64,000 bases of DNA from NCBI GenBank assembly GCA_963720755.1, contig CAVRGP010000015.1, positions 416,001 to 480,000 on the forward strand, given 5' to 3'. This DNA comes from an uncultured Chloroflexia bacterium. Its GTDB lineage: Bacteria > Chloroflexota > Limnocylindria > Limnocylindrales > CSP1-4. A program made the position numbers and the translations under genes. Below are positions 36,191 to 39,695 of the stretch, in pieces (the stretch's first letter is position 1; each line of letters opens with the position of its first letter). The notes beneath the pieces are model-generated. The model was not told the DNA's origin. It made no database searches and saw only the letters and a list, made by a program, of their open reading frames with translations.

Positions 36191-36517
36191 TCACTCGCAG
36201 TGCGCGGGCTTCGGCTTCTTCACCCAGGTGTAGCCGGCTGCGACGCAAGTCTTCTTCTTGGTGTATGCGGACGGCGGGATGGGCGTCGCCGTCGGCGTCG
36301 GGGTCGGCGAAACGACTTCGGAGGGCCCGGAGGCTCCGTTGAGTTGATTCCCGACGTCCGTCAGCGCTCCGGTCAGCTGTCCAGTCAGGAAGAGCGTCGC
36401 CCCGATCGAGACGACAGCGACAAGGACCAGGATCAGGGCGTACTCGACGAGGCCCTGGCCCGCGTCGGCACGTCCGCGCGAAGGGCGTTCGTTCGTATTC
36501 CCGGATTCGTCGGTCAT
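36191..36517 (-). CDS. Flp/Fap pilin with PT linker and small Cys-paired C-terminal domain
   Basis: G|QGLVEYALILVLVAV motif; tail KKKTCVAAGYTWVKKPKPAHCE. Confidence 0.8.
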   Translation of the reverse strand: MTDESGNTNERPSRGRADAGQGLVEYALILVLVAVVSIGATLFLTGQLTGALTDVGNQLNGASGPSEVVSPTPTPTATPIPPSAYTKKKTCVAAGYTWVKKPKPAHCE

Positions 36518-36708
36518 CAAGGGCTCCGGATGGGTGTGAATGGCCGCACCGAACCTACCTCGACCCACCCCGAACGCTCCACGGTACGTAAGTCCGCCTC
36601 CAGACTGGCCCCTATAGGCCCGTTGATGGCTCGCACCGGAAGATGCCTGGATTGACCCGATTCCCCTAGTAATCCCCAGCCGATAGTCCTACTCTCCGGC
36701 GACAGCAA

Positions 36709-36795
36709 GGGGGGCACGGGGCCGCAAGGTCCCACCAGCGCGGCGTCGAACCGGTCGCCAACTCGACGCGCTGGGCCAATGGCGAGACCGACCCC
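36709..36795 (+). ncRNA. c-di-GMP-II-type riboswitch, variant
   Basis: Long stem 36735-36749/36763-36774, loop CGGTCGCCA pseudoknotting with TGGCGAGACCG, 3' signature GGGCCAATGGCGAGACCGACC; 23 nt upstream of the J-domain ATG. Confidence 0.7.
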
Positions 36796-36818
36796 AACAT
36801 GCAATTCGGGGTTGATCG

Positions 36819-37280
36819 ATGGCTGACTACTACGCGACCCTCGGGGTCGACCGATCCGCAGGCCAAGGGACCATTCGAGCTGCCTACCGCTCGCTTGCCC
36901 GGCGAAGTCACCCGGACGCCGGTGGCGACGCCACGGCCATGGCCCGGCTCAACGACGCCTGGGGCATCCTGAGCAAGCCTGAGCGCCGAGCGTCCTATGA
37001 CGCCGAGCTCCGAGCACAGGAAGAGCAGGCGAAGCGCCCGACGGCCACGCCTCGGCGGGCACACGACGGCCACACGATCCTCGATTTCGGGCGGTATTCC
37101 GGATGGTCGCTGGCCGACGTGGCGCACGCCGACGACGATTACCTCGTCTGGTTGTCGCGGACGCCGACGGGCCGACCATTGCGCCGCGAGATCAATGAGC
37201 TGCTCGAATCGCGTGCCCGCGCGGTCGAGGCCGTCCGACCGACCGCCACCGCGGCGCGCCGAAGGCTATGGCGCCGCTGA
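36819..37280 (+). CDS. J-domain protein with C-terminal FGRY.G...YL.WL domain (DUF3820/ExoX-C-like)
   Basis: DYYATLGV, HPD motif, LNDAW..L..PERRASYD; ILDFGRYSGWSLADVA...DYLVWL. Confidence 0.85.
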   Translation: MADYYATLGVDRSAGQGTIRAAYRSLARRSHPDAGGDATAMARLNDAWGILSKPERRASYDAELRAQEEQAKRPTATPRRAHDGHTILDFGRYSGWSLADVAHADDDYLVWLSRTPTGRPLRREINELLESRARAVEAVRPTATAARRRLWRR

Positions 37281-37327: not shown

Positions 37328-38185
37328 ATACCCGCGGACCAGCCCGACCAGCAGCCTACCGACCAGCCTTCGCCGTCCGACGACAACGGACCGGACGCGG
37401 CGACCGCTCGCGTTCCGGTCGATCCGGAGGCGCCGGCCCAACCGTCGCACGGACTGATCTCGGCCGAGCCCGTCGGCTGGAGCGAGACACCGGGTCCGGA
37501 GGGGACGCTGTCTCCACGACCCGACGCGACGACGCCGGTCTGGACGCCGCCCGCGCCGCGGCCCGCGATGGCAGGCACCGACGGCCTGGTGATCTCGGGC
37601 GTCTTCGCCAGGGTCGTCGCCTACGCCATCGACCTGTCGTTGCTTTCGGCCCTGAATGTCGCCATCTCCGGGGCGCTCGGGCTGTTCTCCGAAGATCGCA
37701 ACGAGACGGTGGCCCTGGTCGTCAGTGCCGTGCTGATCGGCGTCGACTTCCTGTACTTCGTCGGGTTCTGGACGAGTCGCCTGCAAGCCACGCTCGGGAT
37801 GCGCTTGATCCGCTTGCGGGTCCTCGGATCGGTCAGTGCCCGCACCCTGTCCGCGAATGACGCCCTGCTCCGATGGCTCGCCCTCAGCGGCGCGGTATCG
37901 ATCCTTGCCTTCGTGCCGTCGATCGCACCGTCCGTCGGGCTGCTCGGCGGCATCTGGATCCTCATGCTGCTGGTGACCACGGCGATGAACCCGTTGCGGC
38001 AGGGTCTTCACGATCGCTGGGCGCGTTCCGTGATCGTCCAGCCGGCACCGGGCGGCTCAGGGCTTGCGATCGTGGGCTGCCTCGTGCTCATGGTGGTGTT
38101 CTTCGTCTTCGTGCCTGTGGCATTGCTGGCGTTCTCGGGCGACCAGATCCGGGAGATCCTCAACGAGATCGGCAACTCCGTCTGA
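37328..38185 (+). CDS. RDD family membrane protein (start uncertain: ATA 37328 or ATG 37568)
   Basis: ARVVAYAID, ATLGMRL, RQGLHDRWA motifs; Pro-rich N-terminal extension open back to 37298. Confidence 0.8.
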   Translation: MPADQPDQQPTDQPSPSDDNGPDAATARVPVDPEAPAQPSHGLISAEPVGWSETPGPEGTLSPRPDATTPVWTPPAPRPAMAGTDGLVISGVFARVVAYAIDLSLLSALNVAISGALGLFSEDRNETVALVVSAVLIGVDFLYFVGFWTSRLQATLGMRLIRLRVLGSVSARTLSANDALLRWLALSGAVSILAFVPSIAPSVGLLGGIWILMLLVTTAMNPLRQGLHDRWARSVIVQPAPGGSGLAIVGCLVLMVVFFVFVPVALLAFSGDQIREILNEIGNSV

Positions 38186-38213: not shown

Positions 38214-39695
38214 ATGGATCTCGATCGACCCGAACCGCTCGGCGACATGCCAACGACCGACTTTCGGGCGGCCGCCTACGCGGTCGTCGACATCATGGCC
38301 GACTACCTGGAGCAGGTGGCCGCGTACCCGGTCTTCCCGGCCATCGAGCCAGGGACCCTTCGGTCGCTCTTTCCGGTGTCCGCGCCCGAGGCGCCGGAAT
38401 CCATCGAGTCCATCCTCCACGACTATGTGACGCTCATCGAACCGAACGCGACGCACTGGCAGCACCCGGGCTTCATGGCCTACTTCGCCACGACGGCCTC
38501 CGCGCCCGGGATCCTCGGCGAGATGCTGACCGCGGCACTCGGCCAGAACCCGATGGTCTGGCGGACGTCACCGATCGGGACGGAGCTCGAGCAGGTCGTC
38601 GTCGATTGGCTCCGTCAAGCCCTGGGTCTCCCGGTCGGCTTCGATGGATTGTTGACCGATACCGCATCAACCTCGAGCCTGATCGCCCTGGCGGCGGCGC
38701 GTGAGGCGGCCGGCACGGATGCGGCGTCAAGTGGACTTGCGGCGCGTCCGGAGCTGGGCGCCGGTCTGCGGGTCTACGCATCCGAAGAGGCCCACAGCTC
38801 GATCGAGAAGGCATGCATGACCCTTGGTCTGGGCCGGGCCTCGCTCGTCCGCATCCCGACCAACGATCGGTTCGAGATGGAACCGACGGGACTCCAGATG
38901 GCGATCGACGCCGACCGGGCAGCCGGCCGACGTCCGGTTGCGATCGTGGCGACCATCGGGACCACGTCATCCACGTCGGTGGATCCGATCGCCGCCATCG
39001 CGGACATCGCCGAGCGGGAGGGCGTGTGGCTGCACGTCGATGCGGCCTACGCCGGTCCGATCGCGATGTTGCCTGAGCGTCGCCTTCCCTTCGACGGCTG
39101 GGAACGCGCCGACTCGATCGTGGTCAATCCCCACAAGTGGTTGTTCGCGCCGCTCGATGCCTCGCTCCTGCTCGCGCGGAGGATGGAGGAGTTGCGGGCG
39201 GCCTTCAGCCTCGTGCCGGAATACCTTCGGACGCTGGATGGCACCACTTCCGGCCGTGACTTCAATGAGTACACACCTCAGCTCGGACGCCGGTTCCGGG
39301 CGCTCAAGCTGTGGATCCAGCTCCGCTGGTTCGGCCTGGAAGGGCTCCGTGCCCGGCTCGAGCATCACCTGGCGATGGCTGCCGCGTTCGAGTCGTGGGT
39401 GGATGCCGACCCGGATTGGGAGCGGGTCGCGCCTGTTCCGTTCTCCACGATCTGCCTCCGCTGGCGACCGGCGGACCGGCAGCTGGACGCCGCGCAGCTC
39501 GATGCCGCGAATGCCGCCATCATGGATACGGTGAACCGCAGCGGGGAGGTCTTCCTGTCGCACACCCGGCTGAATGACCGGTTGGTGATCCGGGTCGCCA
39601 TCGGCAACCTCCGAACCGAGGCCGGTCACGTCGAACGAGCCTGGGAACTCCTGCGTGAAGCCGCCCACGTGGTGAGCCTGGAGCAGGCCGGATGA
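38214..39695 (+). CDS. PLP-dependent aromatic L-amino acid decarboxylase family
   Basis: THWQHPGFMAYF, AHSSIEKA, ATIGTT, WLHVDAAY, NPHKWL, LGRRFRALKLW. Confidence 0.92.
   Translation: MDLDRPEPLGDMPTTDFRAAAYAVVDIMADYLEQVAAYPVFPAIEPGTLRSLFPVSAPEAPESIESILHDYVTLIEPNATHWQHPGFMAYFATTASAPGILGEMLTAALGQNPMVWRTSPIGTELEQVVVDWLRQALGLPVGFDGLLTDTASTSSLIALAAAREAAGTDAASSGLAARPELGAGLRVYASEEAHSSIEKACMTLGLGRASLVRIPTNDRFEMEPTGLQMAIDADRAAGRRPVAIVATIGTTSSTSVDPIAAIADIAEREGVWLHVDAAYAGPIAMLPERRLPFDGWERADSIVVNPHKWLFAPLDASLLLARRMEELRAAFSLVPEYLRTLDGTTSGRDFNEYTPQLGRRFRALKLWIQLRWFGLEGLRARLEHHLAMAAAFESWVDADPDWERVAPVPFSTICLRWRPADRQLDAAQLDAANAAIMDTVNRSGEVFLSHTRLNDRLVIRVAIGNLRTEAGHVERAWELLREAAHVVSLEQAG

What the first reader, a model, noticed from the sequence alone, without database searches (positions are those of the whole stretch)
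36709..36821. Variant c-di-GMP-II-type riboswitch with an extra GNRA hairpin, poised as a translational ON switch for a J-domain co-chaperone
Seen: GGC 36713-15 pairs with GCC 36775-77; stem CCAGCGC(GGC)GTCGA 36735-49 / TCGACGCGCTGG 36763-74; loop CGGTCGCCA pseudoknots with TGGCGAGACCG 36780-90; 3' end GACCGACCCC can pair with the 5' G run. An added hairpin GGGGCC-GCAA-GGTCCC (36718-33) sits where class II has its kink-turn, and the 5' GGAAGC-like strand reads GGGGGC. CGACCCC 36789-95 can alternatively pair with GGGGTTG 36808-14, occluding the ribosome site 4 nt before ATG 36819. Known (recalled, not searched): c-di-GMP-II aptamers end in ...AGUGGUGAGACCGACC with this pseudoknot, and GAG/GCG variants with changed pocket nucleotides have been described. 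Inference: a structurally remodelled variant, possibly sensing another cyclic dinucleotide, that links second-messenger signalling to a DnaK co-chaperone next to a pilin gene.
Basis: partly seen in the sequence, partly recalled or inferred. Interest (0 to 1): 0.82.

Follow-up and report, generated by a model that had tools for sequence, protein, structure and literature searches.

The report
Three-way-junction c-di-GMP-II-GAG riboswitch variant
This is a real, conserved riboswitch-type RNA of the orphan "c-di-GMP-II-GAG" family in a remodelled form with one extra hairpin, sitting at the start of the mRNA for a small J-domain protein in a soil Chloroflexota genome; what it senses is still unknown.

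Summary
The sequence features are at the stated coordinates. Rfam reports nothing here at its own threshold. A permissive scan gives one weak hit, c-di-GMP-II-GAG (RF03169): 30.3 bits against a cut-off of 40. The canonical c-di-GMP-II model does not match at E<=1.

The low score comes from remodelling, not decay. The kink-turn-like internal loop between P2 and P3 is replaced by a hairpin, giving a three-way junction. Related genomes hold many copies of this form. In an unfitted alignment of 21 copies, all 5 hairpin pairs show compensatory changes. A covariance model built from 80 sequences of other genomes, without the window or its three orthologous leaders, scores the window at 77.1 bits, E 8e-16.

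A conserved -10-like hexamer puts the predicted transcript start about 5-8 nt before the aptamer. The aptamer's 3' tail can pair with the GGGG ribosome site of the J-domain gene. That fits a translational ON switch, but class-wide tests of this were weak.

The ligand is unknown. Pocket positions differ from the canonical class, and a canonical copy exists in the same genome. Verdict: a new structural variant of a known orphan family, of moderate interest.

The parts
36690..36695 (+). -10-like promoter hexamer TACTCT. It predicts a transcript start near 36701-36704.
   Evidence: A hexamer of this type starts 15-17 nt before the model start in 66 of 93 hairpin-form copies, and within -24..-10 in 72 of 93. 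That is 0.052 hits per position against 0.0024 in -75..-31. I chose the pattern by eye from these same sequences, so only its positional concentration counts as evidence. The generic sigma-70 scan found nothing.
36706..36798 (+). Whole aptamer as delimited by the covariance models.
   Evidence: R2, the independent model: 77.1 bits, E 7.8e-16. R1, whose seed contains the window: 86.3 bits. Rfam RF03169: 30.3 bits over 36711-36802, cut-off 40.
36709..36712 (+). P1 5' strand (G run). It pairs with CCC(C) 36792-36795. G36712 occupies the junction position that is A in the family consensus.
   Evidence: P1 columns covary in other copies: pair 9-99 is GC in 19 and AU in 2; pair 10-98 is GC in 16, GU in 2 and AU in 1. 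In this copy P1 is only 3-4 bp.
36713..36715 (+). P2 5' strand GGC, pairing with GCC 36775-36777.
   Evidence: P2 is nearly invariant in 21 copies, with 95.2% of cells paired and no covariation.
36718..36733 (+). Extra hairpin P2a: a 6-bp stem with a GCAA loop, making a three-way junction with P2 and P3.
   Evidence: Pairs verified. All 5 helix pairs have changes on both sides in the unfitted MAFFT alignment A1, and again in 80 sequences from other species (that alignment was fitted to the model).
36735..36774 (+). P3 hairpin; its loop carries the pseudoknot strand.
   Evidence: Five of 10 P3 pairs have changes on both sides in A1. Pair 37-80, which abuts P2, is CG in 13, GU in 4, GC in 1 and UA in 1.
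36752..36759 (+). Pseudoknot strand in the P3 loop, CGGUCGCC.
   Evidence: It matches the upper-case consensus of RF03169. Seven of the 8 pseudoknot pairs never vary across 21 copies, which is neutral as evidence for pairing.
36781..36790 (+). Pseudoknot 3' strand GGCGAGACCG, containing the GAG signature (36784-86). By consensus alignment, G36786 corresponds to canonical A69, A36787 to A70 and G36790 to G73.
   Evidence: Compare the consensus lines of RF03169 and RF01786. Numbering of pocket residues is taken from PMC13715770. The mapping itself is my inference.
36789..36795 (+). Switching strand CGACCCC, shared between the pseudoknot/P1 and the alternative helix with 36808-36814.
   Evidence: In unconstrained ensembles GGGG 36808-11 pairs with 36786-97 at probability 0.91-0.999, for six different 3' ends.
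36808..36814 (+). GGGGUUG: a Shine-Dalgarno-like G run 7 nt before the start codon, and the partner of the alternative helix.
   Evidence: The cognate duplex is -15.1 kcal/mol, better than this tail achieves with all but 2 of 87 ribosome-site regions.
36819..37280 (+). Regulated gene: a 153-aa J-domain protein.
   Evidence: Pfam DnaJ domain at 55 bits (cut-off 27.8) over residues 3-61. ExoX-like_C at 26.8 bits (cut-off 26.5) over residues 88-113.

Best explanation
Window 36706-36798 encodes a functional ligand-sensing aptamer of the c-di-GMP-II-GAG variant family, in a three-way-junction form. The family's kink-turn-like internal loop between P2 and P3 is replaced by a hairpin (P2a). P1, P2, P3, the loop-tail pseudoknot and the GAG tail are all kept.

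The aptamer lies at the very 5' end of the mRNA of a small J-domain protein. The most likely mechanism is a translational ON switch. Without ligand, the 3' tail CGACCCC pairs with the GGGGUUG ribosome site. With ligand, that tail is held in the pseudoknot and P1, and the ribosome site is released.

The ligand is unidentified. It is probably a nucleotide-derived second messenger. It is probably not recognised in the way canonical c-di-GMP-II recognises c-di-GMP, because the positions corresponding to A69, C68, A13 and G74 are changed.

Shown: family-type sequence and structure, covariation, position relative to the gene, and complementarity of tail and ribosome site. Inferred: transcript start, switching, direction of regulation, and nature of the ligand.
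For: Identity:
- The only Rfam hit is RF03169. The loop CGGUCGCC and the tail UGGCGAGACCGACC match its consensus exactly.
- The independent model R2 gives 77.1 bits, E 7.8e-16.

Structure:
- In A1, 88.5% of cells pair, against 34.5-41.7% when partners are slid.
- Fourteen of 32 pairs carry changes on both sides, and 0 of 500 shuffles reach that.
- All 5 hairpin pairs covary, and they do so again in 80 further sequences.

Selection:
- The four orthologous J-domain leaders (proteins 66-88% identical) keep the core.
- Their hairpin stems differ in compensatory fashion: GGGGCC/GGUCCC, GGGGC/GCCCC, GGACC/GGUCC.
- One of them rebuilds P3 as CCGGUGC/GCACCGG.

5' location:
- A -10-like hexamer lies 16 nt before the model start, as in 66 of 93 copies.
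- There is no terminator-like site between the aptamer and the gene.

Switch:
- The tail-ribosome-site helix has 7 bp and -15.1 kcal/mol.
- GGGG is paired to the tail with probability 0.91-0.999 in free folds.
- The structure with the alternative helix (-40.3 kcal/mol) and the nested aptamer (-32.4 to -36.8, before adding a pseudoknot of roughly -11.8) lie in a range that a ligand could tip.
- The canonical c-di-GMP-II copy in the same genome has a terminator overlapping its P1 3' strand. That is also ON logic.
- Across the class, blocking the aptamer raises ribosome-site accessibility more than coding-region accessibility in 61 of 87 copies.

Different recognition:
- RF01786 does not match the window at E<=1, yet it finds a 65.6-bit copy elsewhere in the genome.
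- The genome encodes GGDEF and DAC domains.
Against: - Rfam's curated threshold is not met (30.3 against 40 bits).
- P1 is only 3-4 bp in this copy.
- The pseudoknot pairs never vary, so they are not proven by covariation.
- Tail-ribosome-site pairing is largely compositional. Tails with shuffled order still pair with 4 or more ribosome-site nucleotides in 55.5% of trials, against 61 of 87 observed.
- Cognate tail/site duplexes are no better than non-cognate ones: -10.49 against -10.42 kcal/mol, with 1772 of 5000 permutations as low.
- For the window itself, release of GGGG when the aptamer is sequestered depends on the 3' end of the construct. P(unpaired) is 0.54 with ends at 36825 or 36830, but 0.03-0.23 with ends at 36842-36920, because coding sequence can then pair with it.
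- In the two more distant orthologues the complementary GGGU lies directly after the aptamer, 15-20 nt from the start codon. It covers no obvious ribosome site.
- There are no RNA data and no ligand data.
Confidence: 0.6

Rival explanations
1. It is the same functional aptamer, but it still senses c-di-GMP itself. On this view the GAG tail and the three-way junction are neutral or affinity-tuning remodelling, not a change of ligand.
For: - The architecture and pseudoknot are those of c-di-GMP-II.
- The positions corresponding to A61, A70 and G73 are kept.
- The genome has 10 GGDEF-domain matches, 7 of them at 108 bits or more.
- Genes downstream of the subclass are rich in signal-peptide-bearing secreted proteins. 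The largest cluster is 18 of 91. From my own recollection, that resembles known c-di-GMP regulons.
Against: - The position corresponding to A69 is G here. In PMC13715770, A69 makes three hydrogen bonds to one guanine of the ligand.
- The floor position is G rather than A.
- A canonical c-di-GMP-II copy coexists in the same genome, which suggests the two forms do different jobs.
- As I recall the abstract of Weinberg et al. 2017 (paper not held), the family was set apart as likely to have altered specificity.
Confidence: 0.3
2. It is a functional aptamer, but the read-out is not translational activation. It could be an OFF switch, Rho-dependent termination, or control of mRNA stability.
For: - The class-wide tests of ribosome-site occlusion were weak or null.
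- The orthologues in G018 and G111 place the complementary segment away from the start codon.
- Release of the ribosome site in the window depends on the construct modelled.
Against: - There is a strong, specific 7-bp tail-ribosome-site helix in the window and in G068.
- No intrinsic terminator is present.
- Many other copies show the tail pairing with GGAGG-type sites across an intervening hairpin.
Confidence: 0.2
3. It is a decaying relic of a riboswitch that no longer binds anything.
For: - The score is below Rfam's threshold.
- P1 is short.
- The junction nucleotide differs from the consensus (G where most copies have A).
- It is the only copy of this form in its genome.
Against: - The core is kept across four orthologous leaders, with compensatory changes in P2a and P3.
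- It scores 77.1 bits with an independent model of the subclass.
- The low Rfam score is explained by the unmodelled hairpin. Thirteen of the 22 hairpin-form copies I could cross-match in genomes G000-G024 also fall below 40 bits.
Confidence: 0.07
4. It is not a riboswitch at all, but a protein-binding leader, a small RNA, or a chance resemblance.
For: No ligand has been shown for any member of the GAG family in anything I could read.
Against: - It has the pseudoknotted architecture and conserved pocket nucleotides of a solved riboswitch class.
- It is always on the sense strand, directly upstream of an ORF, in the copies examined.
- E is 7.8e-16.
Confidence: 0.03

Closest known systems
c-di-GMP-II-GAG riboswitch candidate (Rfam RF03169, clan CL00127)
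   Same: - It is the only Rfam family that matches.
- The order of P1, P2, P3 and the pseudoknot is the same.
- The loop CGGUCGCC and the tail A-UGGCGAGACCGACC are identical to the consensus.
- It lies in a 5' UTR on the sense strand.
   Different: - The score is 30.3 bits, below the cut-off of 40.
- The 5' internal-loop strand (consensus uauGAc) is replaced by a 16-nt hairpin plus linkers.
- The unpaired GA on the 3' side is gone, so P3 abuts P2 directly.
- The junction A is G.
- P1 has 3-4 bp where the consensus has 11.
Canonical c-di-GMP-II riboswitch (Rfam RF01786; solved structures discussed in PMC13715770)
   Same: - The overall fold logic is the same.
- The positions corresponding to A61, A70 and G73 are conserved.
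- A bona fide member at 65.6 bits exists in the same genome.
   Different: - There is no RF01786 match at E<=1.
- The tail reads GGCGAGACCG instead of GUGCAACCG, and the loop CGGUCGCC instead of UGGGCAC.
- By my mapping the changes are A69 to G, C68 to A, A13 to G and G74 to A.
- The kink-turn region is replaced by a three-way junction.
k-junction (a three-way junction elaborated from a kink-turn; PMC4005666)
   Same: A helix is added at the site of a kink-turn-type bend, giving a three-way junction that could keep the sharp bend needed for the P3 loop to reach the 3' tail.
   Different: The tandem G-A pairs that define a k-turn or k-junction are not evident here. The junction strands are only A-C and A on the 5' side and zero nucleotides on the 3' side. 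I saw only the search listing and the start of the abstract. No 3D test is possible with these tools.

Membership tests
c-di-GMP-II-GAG (RF03169) | Covariance-model score at or above Rfam's gathering threshold (40 bits) | tested here: not met
   30.3 bits, E 5e-4 in 401 nt. Nothing is reported at the gathering threshold. The CM forces the 5' half of the extra hairpin into P1 (marks in the alignment).
c-di-GMP-II-GAG (RF03169) | Pseudoknot between the P3 loop CGGuCGCC and the tail GGCGAGACCG, with the GAG trinucleotide | tested here: met
   The motifs are identical at 36752-59 and 36781-90, giving 8 Watson-Crick pairs. The pairs are invariant across copies, so covariation cannot confirm them.
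c-di-GMP-II-GAG (RF03169) | Nested helices P1, P2 and P3 in consensus order | tested here: met
   P2 has 3 bp and P3 has 10 pairs with one G-A mismatch. P1 has only 3-4 bp. P1 and P3 covary in the subclass.
c-di-GMP-II-GAG (RF03169) | Asymmetric internal loop between P2 and P3 (5' uauGAc, 3' gGA; kink-turn-like) | tested here: not met
   It is replaced by hairpin 36718-33, and P3 stacks directly on P2 on the 3' strand. That this loop is a kink-turn in the canonical class is recalled; Smith et al. 2011 is not held.
c-di-GMP-II-GAG (RF03169) | Cis-regulatory position: 5' UTR, same strand as the downstream gene | tested here: met
   The aptamer ends 23 nt before ATG 36819 of the J-domain gene. 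A predicted -10 element lies 16 nt upstream of the model start.
c-di-GMP-II-GAG (RF03169) | Binding of a specific ligand (unknown for this family) | not testable with these tools
   No ligand report was found. The defining paper is not held.
Canonical c-di-GMP-II (RF01786) | CM score at or above 53.5 bits, and the pocket residue A69 | tested here: not met
   There is no match at E<=1 at the window locus, while the same search finds a 65.6-bit copy elsewhere in the genome. The position aligned with A69 is G36786.
Three-way-junction subclass defined here (models R1, R2) | A covarying hairpin between P2 and P3, with P3 abutting P2, plus the GAG-type loop and tail | tested here: met
   R2, built without the window or its three orthologues, gives 77.1 bits, E 7.8e-16. 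All 5 hairpin pairs covary.

The most novel reading that the evidence does not exclude
The three-way-junction GAG RNAs of soil Limnocylindria would be a distinct riboswitch class, or a small set of classes, for a signal that is not c-di-GMP.

Variation at pocket positions would mark separate specificities. The position aligned with the intercalating A70 is A in most copies, but U or C in all 13 copies upstream of DUF6176 genes. The floor position is A, U or G.

The regulon is made up of small secreted proteins and small stress-type proteins: SnoaL-like, GYD, SRPBCC, cupin, DUF6176 and a J-domain protein. That regulon would then define an unknown signalling pathway in this poorly studied lineage. 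In this genome, the J-domain protein would be its only RNA-controlled output.
Probability: 0.25. Interest if true: 0.8.

Novelty: new variant of a known kind. Interest (0 to 1): 0.52.

Why it matters
The c-di-GMP-II-GAG family is an orphan. It was set apart because its pocket differs from the c-di-GMP sensor, and I found no report of its ligand.

This finding shows three things:
- The family has a large, structurally distinct form, in which a three-way junction replaces the kink-turn-like loop.
- Rfam's model under-detects that form. Thirteen of the 22 copies I could cross-match fall below threshold.
- The form is abundant in soil Limnocylindria, in 75 of 131 genomes of one genus.

Many diverse representatives, with a defined set of downstream genes, are exactly the material needed to guess and test a ligand. 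The exchange of a kink-turn-like loop for a junction is also a natural experiment in RNA architecture.

For this genome, it nominates a J-domain protein as the single output of the signal.

Tried and rejected
**Rfam and thermodynamics.** Rfam at its gathering threshold found only two tRNAs. The single-sequence fold gave z = -1.02, so there is no thermodynamic signal. The generic sigma-70 and terminator scan found 0 sites of either kind.

**Tests of the ON switch that gave weak or null results.**
- Shuffled tails still paired with the ribosome site in 55.5% of trials, against 61 of 87 observed.
- Cognate tail/site duplexes were no better than non-cognate ones, with 1772 of 5000 permutations as low.
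- The mean gain in ribosome-site accessibility on blocking the aptamer was only +0.11, against +0.05 in coding sequence. For the window it was +0.04 in that construct.
- Release of GGGG depended on the 3' end of the construct.
- For some searches I dropped copies whose chosen start codon lay less than 12-14 nt or more than 60 nt from the aptamer, keeping 87 of 91. Start codons were picked by a simple score and may be wrong in some copies.

Column pair 44-73 covaries: GC in 15, AU in 3 and GU in 2.

**GNRA loop.** I rejected a conserved GNRA contact, because loop sequences vary.

**The pilin-like gene.** I considered regulation of the Flp-like gene and rejected it. It lies on the other strand, upstream, and is only a sub-threshold match.

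**Expression.** No RNA holder was listed. The four runs that hold the stretch are soil-metagenome DNA from one study. I therefore did not use read laying.

**Literature.**
- Searches found no description of a three-way-junction form, nor of a ligand for the GAG variant.
- The paper that defined the variant (Weinberg et al. 2017, PNAS) is not held. Nor are Smith et al. 2011 and Lee et al. 2010.
- Supplements are closed and I could not see the Rfam seed. The hairpin form may therefore already be drawn there.

What I saw of each paper:
- PMC13715770: whole text.
- PMC5737381: one passage.
- PMC9943018: one passage.
- PMC7266159: passages.
- PMC5473149: passages.
- PMC9495366: passages.
- PMC11539752 and PMC4005666: search listing only.
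Full report
**1. The observation.**

A script checked each proposed pair:
- P2: GGC 36713-15 with GCC 36775-77.
- Extra hairpin: 36718-23 with 36728-33 (GC, GC, GC, GU, CG, CG), loop GCAA.
- P3: from C36735-G36774 inwards.
- Pseudoknot: eight Watson-Crick pairs between 36752-59 and 36781-84 plus 36787-90.
- Alternative helix: seven pairs between CGACCCC 36789-95 and GGGGUUG 36808-14, ending 4 nt before ATG 36819.

The ORF from 36819 to 37280 has a DnaJ domain at 55 bits and a borderline ExoX-like C-terminal match. The divergent ORF at 36191-36568 is only a sub-threshold Flp/Fap match, 23.9 bits against a cut-off of 32.2.

**2. Database identity.**

At Rfam's own thresholds the 64 kb window holds only two tRNAs. 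A permissive scan of 36550-36950 gives one meaningful hit, c-di-GMP-II-GAG (RF03169): 30.3 bits, cut-off 40, E 5e-4. The loop CGGUCGCC and the tail UGGCGAGACCGACC match the consensus letter for letter.

The canonical model RF01786 does not match the window at E<=1. The same search finds a 65.6-bit canonical copy elsewhere in the genome, at G000:C6:277378-277461. The window element is therefore of the GAG type, is not canonical, and fails Rfam's membership score.

**3. Why the score is low: a remodelled subclass.**

The family is abundant in the window's genus. RF03169 matches 21 of 24 other genus genomes at E<=0.01. It matches none of 16 genomes of the sister family searched. A blastn search with the leader finds related stretches in 46 of 100 other genus genomes.

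Reading those copies shows two forms.
- The classical form has P2 (GGC), then a short GA-containing loop, then P3, and on the 3' side cGAGCC.
- The second form has a hairpin in place of the loop. On the 3' side its P3 runs straight into P2 (…CUGGGCC…).

I aligned 21 copies of the second form with MAFFT, with no structural fitting, and counted a hand-written structure that includes the pseudoknot:
- 88.5% of cells pair, against 34.5-41.7% when partners are slid by 1-3 columns.
- Fourteen of 32 pairs have changes on both sides, and 0 of 500 shuffles reach this.
- The extra hairpin has changes on both sides in 5 of its 5 pairs.
- P3 has such changes in 5 of 10 pairs.
- The P3 pair that abuts P2 is CG in 13, GU in 4, GC in 1 and UA in 1.
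- Seven of the 8 pseudoknot pairs never vary, which neither supports nor contradicts that pairing.

**4. Independent confirmation.**

Of these, 80 were delivered as loci. Model R1, built from the 21 copies, matched 80 places on 74 of those 80 loci.

- Fifty-seven matches are 86 nt or longer, the length class of the hairpin form. Fifty-three of these lie on contigs labelled Chloroflexota: 52 Chloroflexia, Limnocylindria or similar, plus one Anaerolinea.
- The two Actinomycetota matches in this length class are long because of a longer P3, not because of the hairpin.
- On this second set, which is aligned to the model and therefore biased towards it, the hairpin again has changes on both sides in 5 of 5 pairs and 88.4% of cells paired.

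From this set I built model R2. It contains neither the window nor its three orthologous leaders. R2 scores window 36706-36798 at 77.1 bits, E 7.8e-16. The next hit in the window scores 17 bits.

Several aptamers of G-handle genomes are identical to aptamers on contigs titled Limnocylindrales or Chloroflexia. The window's genus therefore belongs to that lineage. I had first guessed Actinobacteria, which was wrong.

**5. Extent and detection.**

R1 finds the form in 75 of 131 genus genomes at E<=0.001, and in 12 of the 24 high-quality ones. Up to 7 matches occur per genome. These counts include about 76-nt classical copies that score below about 41 bits.

In the window's own genome it is the only copy: 86.3 bits, with the next hit at 24 bits, E 0.07.

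I cross-matched by coordinates the 22 R1 hits of 86 nt or more in genomes G000-G024 with the RF03169 scores. Nine reach 40 bits and 13 do not. One of those 13 is not listed at all. Rfam's model therefore catches some members by misalignment and misses more than half.

**6. Pocket positions.**

The consensus lines of RF01786 and RF03169 have the same structure line, and the same length from the conserved A after P2 to the P1 3' strand. PMC13715770 (whole text read) gives the contacts in the solved canonical structure:
- U60 closes P2.
- A61 is the ceiling of the pocket.
- A69 binds one guanine of the ligand with three hydrogen bonds.
- A70 intercalates between the two ligand bases.
- G73 binds the other guanine.
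- An adenine forms the floor of the pocket, in a non-canonical pair of P1.

Counting along the consensus maps these positions onto the window as follows:

| Canonical position | Window base | Status |
|---|---|---|
| A61 | A36778 | kept |
| C68 | A36785 | changed |
| A69 | G36786 | changed |
| A70 | A36787 | kept |
| G73 | G36790 | kept |
| floor A | G36712 (U in the three orthologues, A in most copies) | changed |
| its partner G74 | A36791 | changed |

This mapping is my inference. It also explains the family name: GAG in place of canonical GCA. That this is the origin of the name is my assumption.

The genome has 10 GGDEF-domain matches, 7 of them strong, and 2 DAC-domain matches. It is therefore likely to make both c-di-GMP and c-di-AMP. 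A canonical and a variant aptamer in one genome argue for different tasks, but do not prove different ligands.

**7. Position in the transcript.**

Upstream of the hairpin-form copies there is a hexamer of the type CA-N-ACT or TACTCT. It starts 15-17 nt before the model start in 66 of 93 copies, and within -24..-10 in 72 of 93. Its frequency there is more than twenty times that further upstream. I chose the pattern by eye from these sequences, so only the positional peak counts as evidence.

In the window the hexamer is TACTCT at 36690-95. That predicts a start near 36701-36704, a few nucleotides before P1. No terminator-like site follows the aptamer. No RNA run holds the stretch, so the start remains unmeasured.

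**8. Expression platform.**

In favour of a translational ON switch:
- In unconstrained ensembles GGGG 36808-11 pairs with the tail 36786-97 at probability 0.91-0.999, whatever the 3' end.
- The duplex is -15.1 kcal/mol. This tail does better with only 2 of 87 ribosome-site regions.
- The structure with the alternative helix is -40.3 kcal/mol. The nested aptamer is -32.4 to -36.8 kcal/mol before adding the pseudoknot.
- Many other copies show the C-rich tail pairing with a GGAGG-type site across an intervening stable hairpin.
- The canonical copy in this genome has a terminator whose 5' arm overlaps the P1 3' strand.

Against it, or neutral:
- Shuffled tails pair with the ribosome site nearly as often.
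- Cognate pairs are no better than non-cognate pairs.
- The class-wide accessibility gain is small, +0.11 against +0.05.
- In the window, release of GGGG on sequestering the aptamer is seen only with short constructs. P(unpaired) is 0.54 there, against 0.03-0.23 when coding sequence is included.
- In the G018 and G111 orthologues the complementary GGGU follows the aptamer directly and lies far from the start codon.

I keep the ON switch as the most likely mechanism, at roughly even odds.

**9. Gene association.**

Homologues of the J-domain protein occur in 55 of 131 genus genomes at E<=1e-15. Among the 30 best loci:
- Four carry the aptamer directly upstream: G000, G068, G018 and G111, whose proteins are 66-100% identical to the window's.
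- One, G022, has it about 650 nt upstream, ahead of another small ORF.
- The other 25 have no credible match within the 1.5 kb flank.

The link to this gene is therefore young and clade-specific.

Across 91 hairpin-form copies, the downstream proteins cluster as follows:
- an approximately 100-aa signal-peptide protein without a Pfam family, 18 copies;
- DUF6176-like, 13;
- SnoaL-like, 6 plus 2;
- an approximately 190-aa membrane or secreted protein, 5;
- cupin-like, 4;
- the J-domain protein, 4;
- GYD, 3 plus 1;
- many singletons, mostly with signal peptides, and one SRPBCC protein.

No gene for making or breaking a cyclic dinucleotide turned up among them. The regulon therefore gives no direct hint of the ligand.

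**10. Comparison and novelty.**

The element works like a c-di-GMP-II-type pseudoknotted aptamer and belongs to the GAG branch by loop and tail. It fails two family criteria: the score, and the internal loop. I therefore file it as a structural variant rather than a plain member.

I found no description of a three-way-junction form, nor of a ligand, in the searchable library. I could not read the defining 2017 paper, its supplements, or the Rfam seed. I recall that its abstract says variants of c-di-GMP-I and -II might recognise different signalling molecules. The claim of novelty is limited by this.

The kink-turn of the canonical class is recalled from Smith et al. 2011, which is not held. 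The k-junction precedent I know only from a listing.

**11. Verdict.**

It is not a one-off. It belongs to a large, under-annotated three-way-junction subclass of an orphan riboswitch family in soil Limnocylindria.

My confidence, by claim:
- about 0.9 that it is a functional aptamer of this kind;
- about 0.5 that it is a translational ON switch;
- ligand open, with about 0.3 for c-di-GMP itself.

Noticed in passing
G000:C6:277378-277461 (locus L001 1501-1584, terminator to about 1599): The same genome has a canonical c-di-GMP-II riboswitch: RF01786 at 65.6 bits, RF03169 at 44.9. It is followed by a hairpin plus U-run. The 5' arm of that hairpin (ACCGACC) overlaps the P1 3' strand, which suggests a transcriptional ON switch ahead of a signal-peptide protein.
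   Followed up: partly
Loci L050, L057, L058, L085, L088-L090, L092, L096-L100 (genus copies): All 13 hairpin-form copies upstream of DUF6176-like 119-aa genes have U (11) or C (2) at the position aligned with the ligand-intercalating A70, giving the tail GAGU/GAGC. Only one other copy (L095) has U there. The A3-derived copies were selected with a GAGA pattern, so the comparison rests on the genus set. The 13 may all be orthologues, that is, a single evolutionary event.
   Followed up: partly
Upstream 75 nt of 93 hairpin-form copies; window 36666-36695: Besides the -10-like hexamer, many copies carry a CTATCTATTC-like motif about 20 nt further upstream. The window has CTAGTAAT at 36666-73. This may be a lineage-specific -35 or extended promoter element in Limnocylindria.
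   Followed up: no
Extra-hairpin loops in loci such as L045, L079, L081, L086, L074: Many copies have G-rich loops (GGGG, CGGGGG) in the added hairpin. These resemble a ribosome-binding site and are complementary to the C-rich aptamer tail. They may form a third pairing alternative or a tertiary contact. The window's loop is GCAA instead.
   Followed up: no
Loci L135, L146, L156, L168, L169, L172, L189, L207 and others: A further sub-form has 3-4 unpaired nucleotides between P3 and P2 on the 3' side (…GUGCCG-AAA/CAU-GCCAAU), and U at the pocket-floor position. It is mostly upstream of an approximately 100-aa signal-peptide protein family, 18 of 91 copies.
   Followed up: partly
Locus L107 (G022:C1), aptamer 755-849, J-domain homologue from about 1501: In one genome the aptamer precedes a 116-aa predicted membrane protein, with a J-domain homologue (56% identical) about 650 nt downstream. 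This may be an operon, and it hints at an older link between this RNA and the J-domain gene neighbourhood.
   Followed up: no
window 36799-36972 (+): An ATG directly after the aptamer opens a 57-codon frame that overlaps the J-domain start in another frame. It is kept in the closest orthologue (G068) but not in G018 or G111, so it is probably not a gene.
   Followed up: partly
window 36191-36568 (-), 37568-38185 (+), 38214-39695 (+): Neighbours are a divergent Flp/Fap-like small protein (sub-threshold, 23.9 bits), an RDD-family membrane protein (68.3 bits), and a pyridoxal-dependent decarboxylase (302 bits). No tad/pilus assembly genes were looked for.
   Followed up: no
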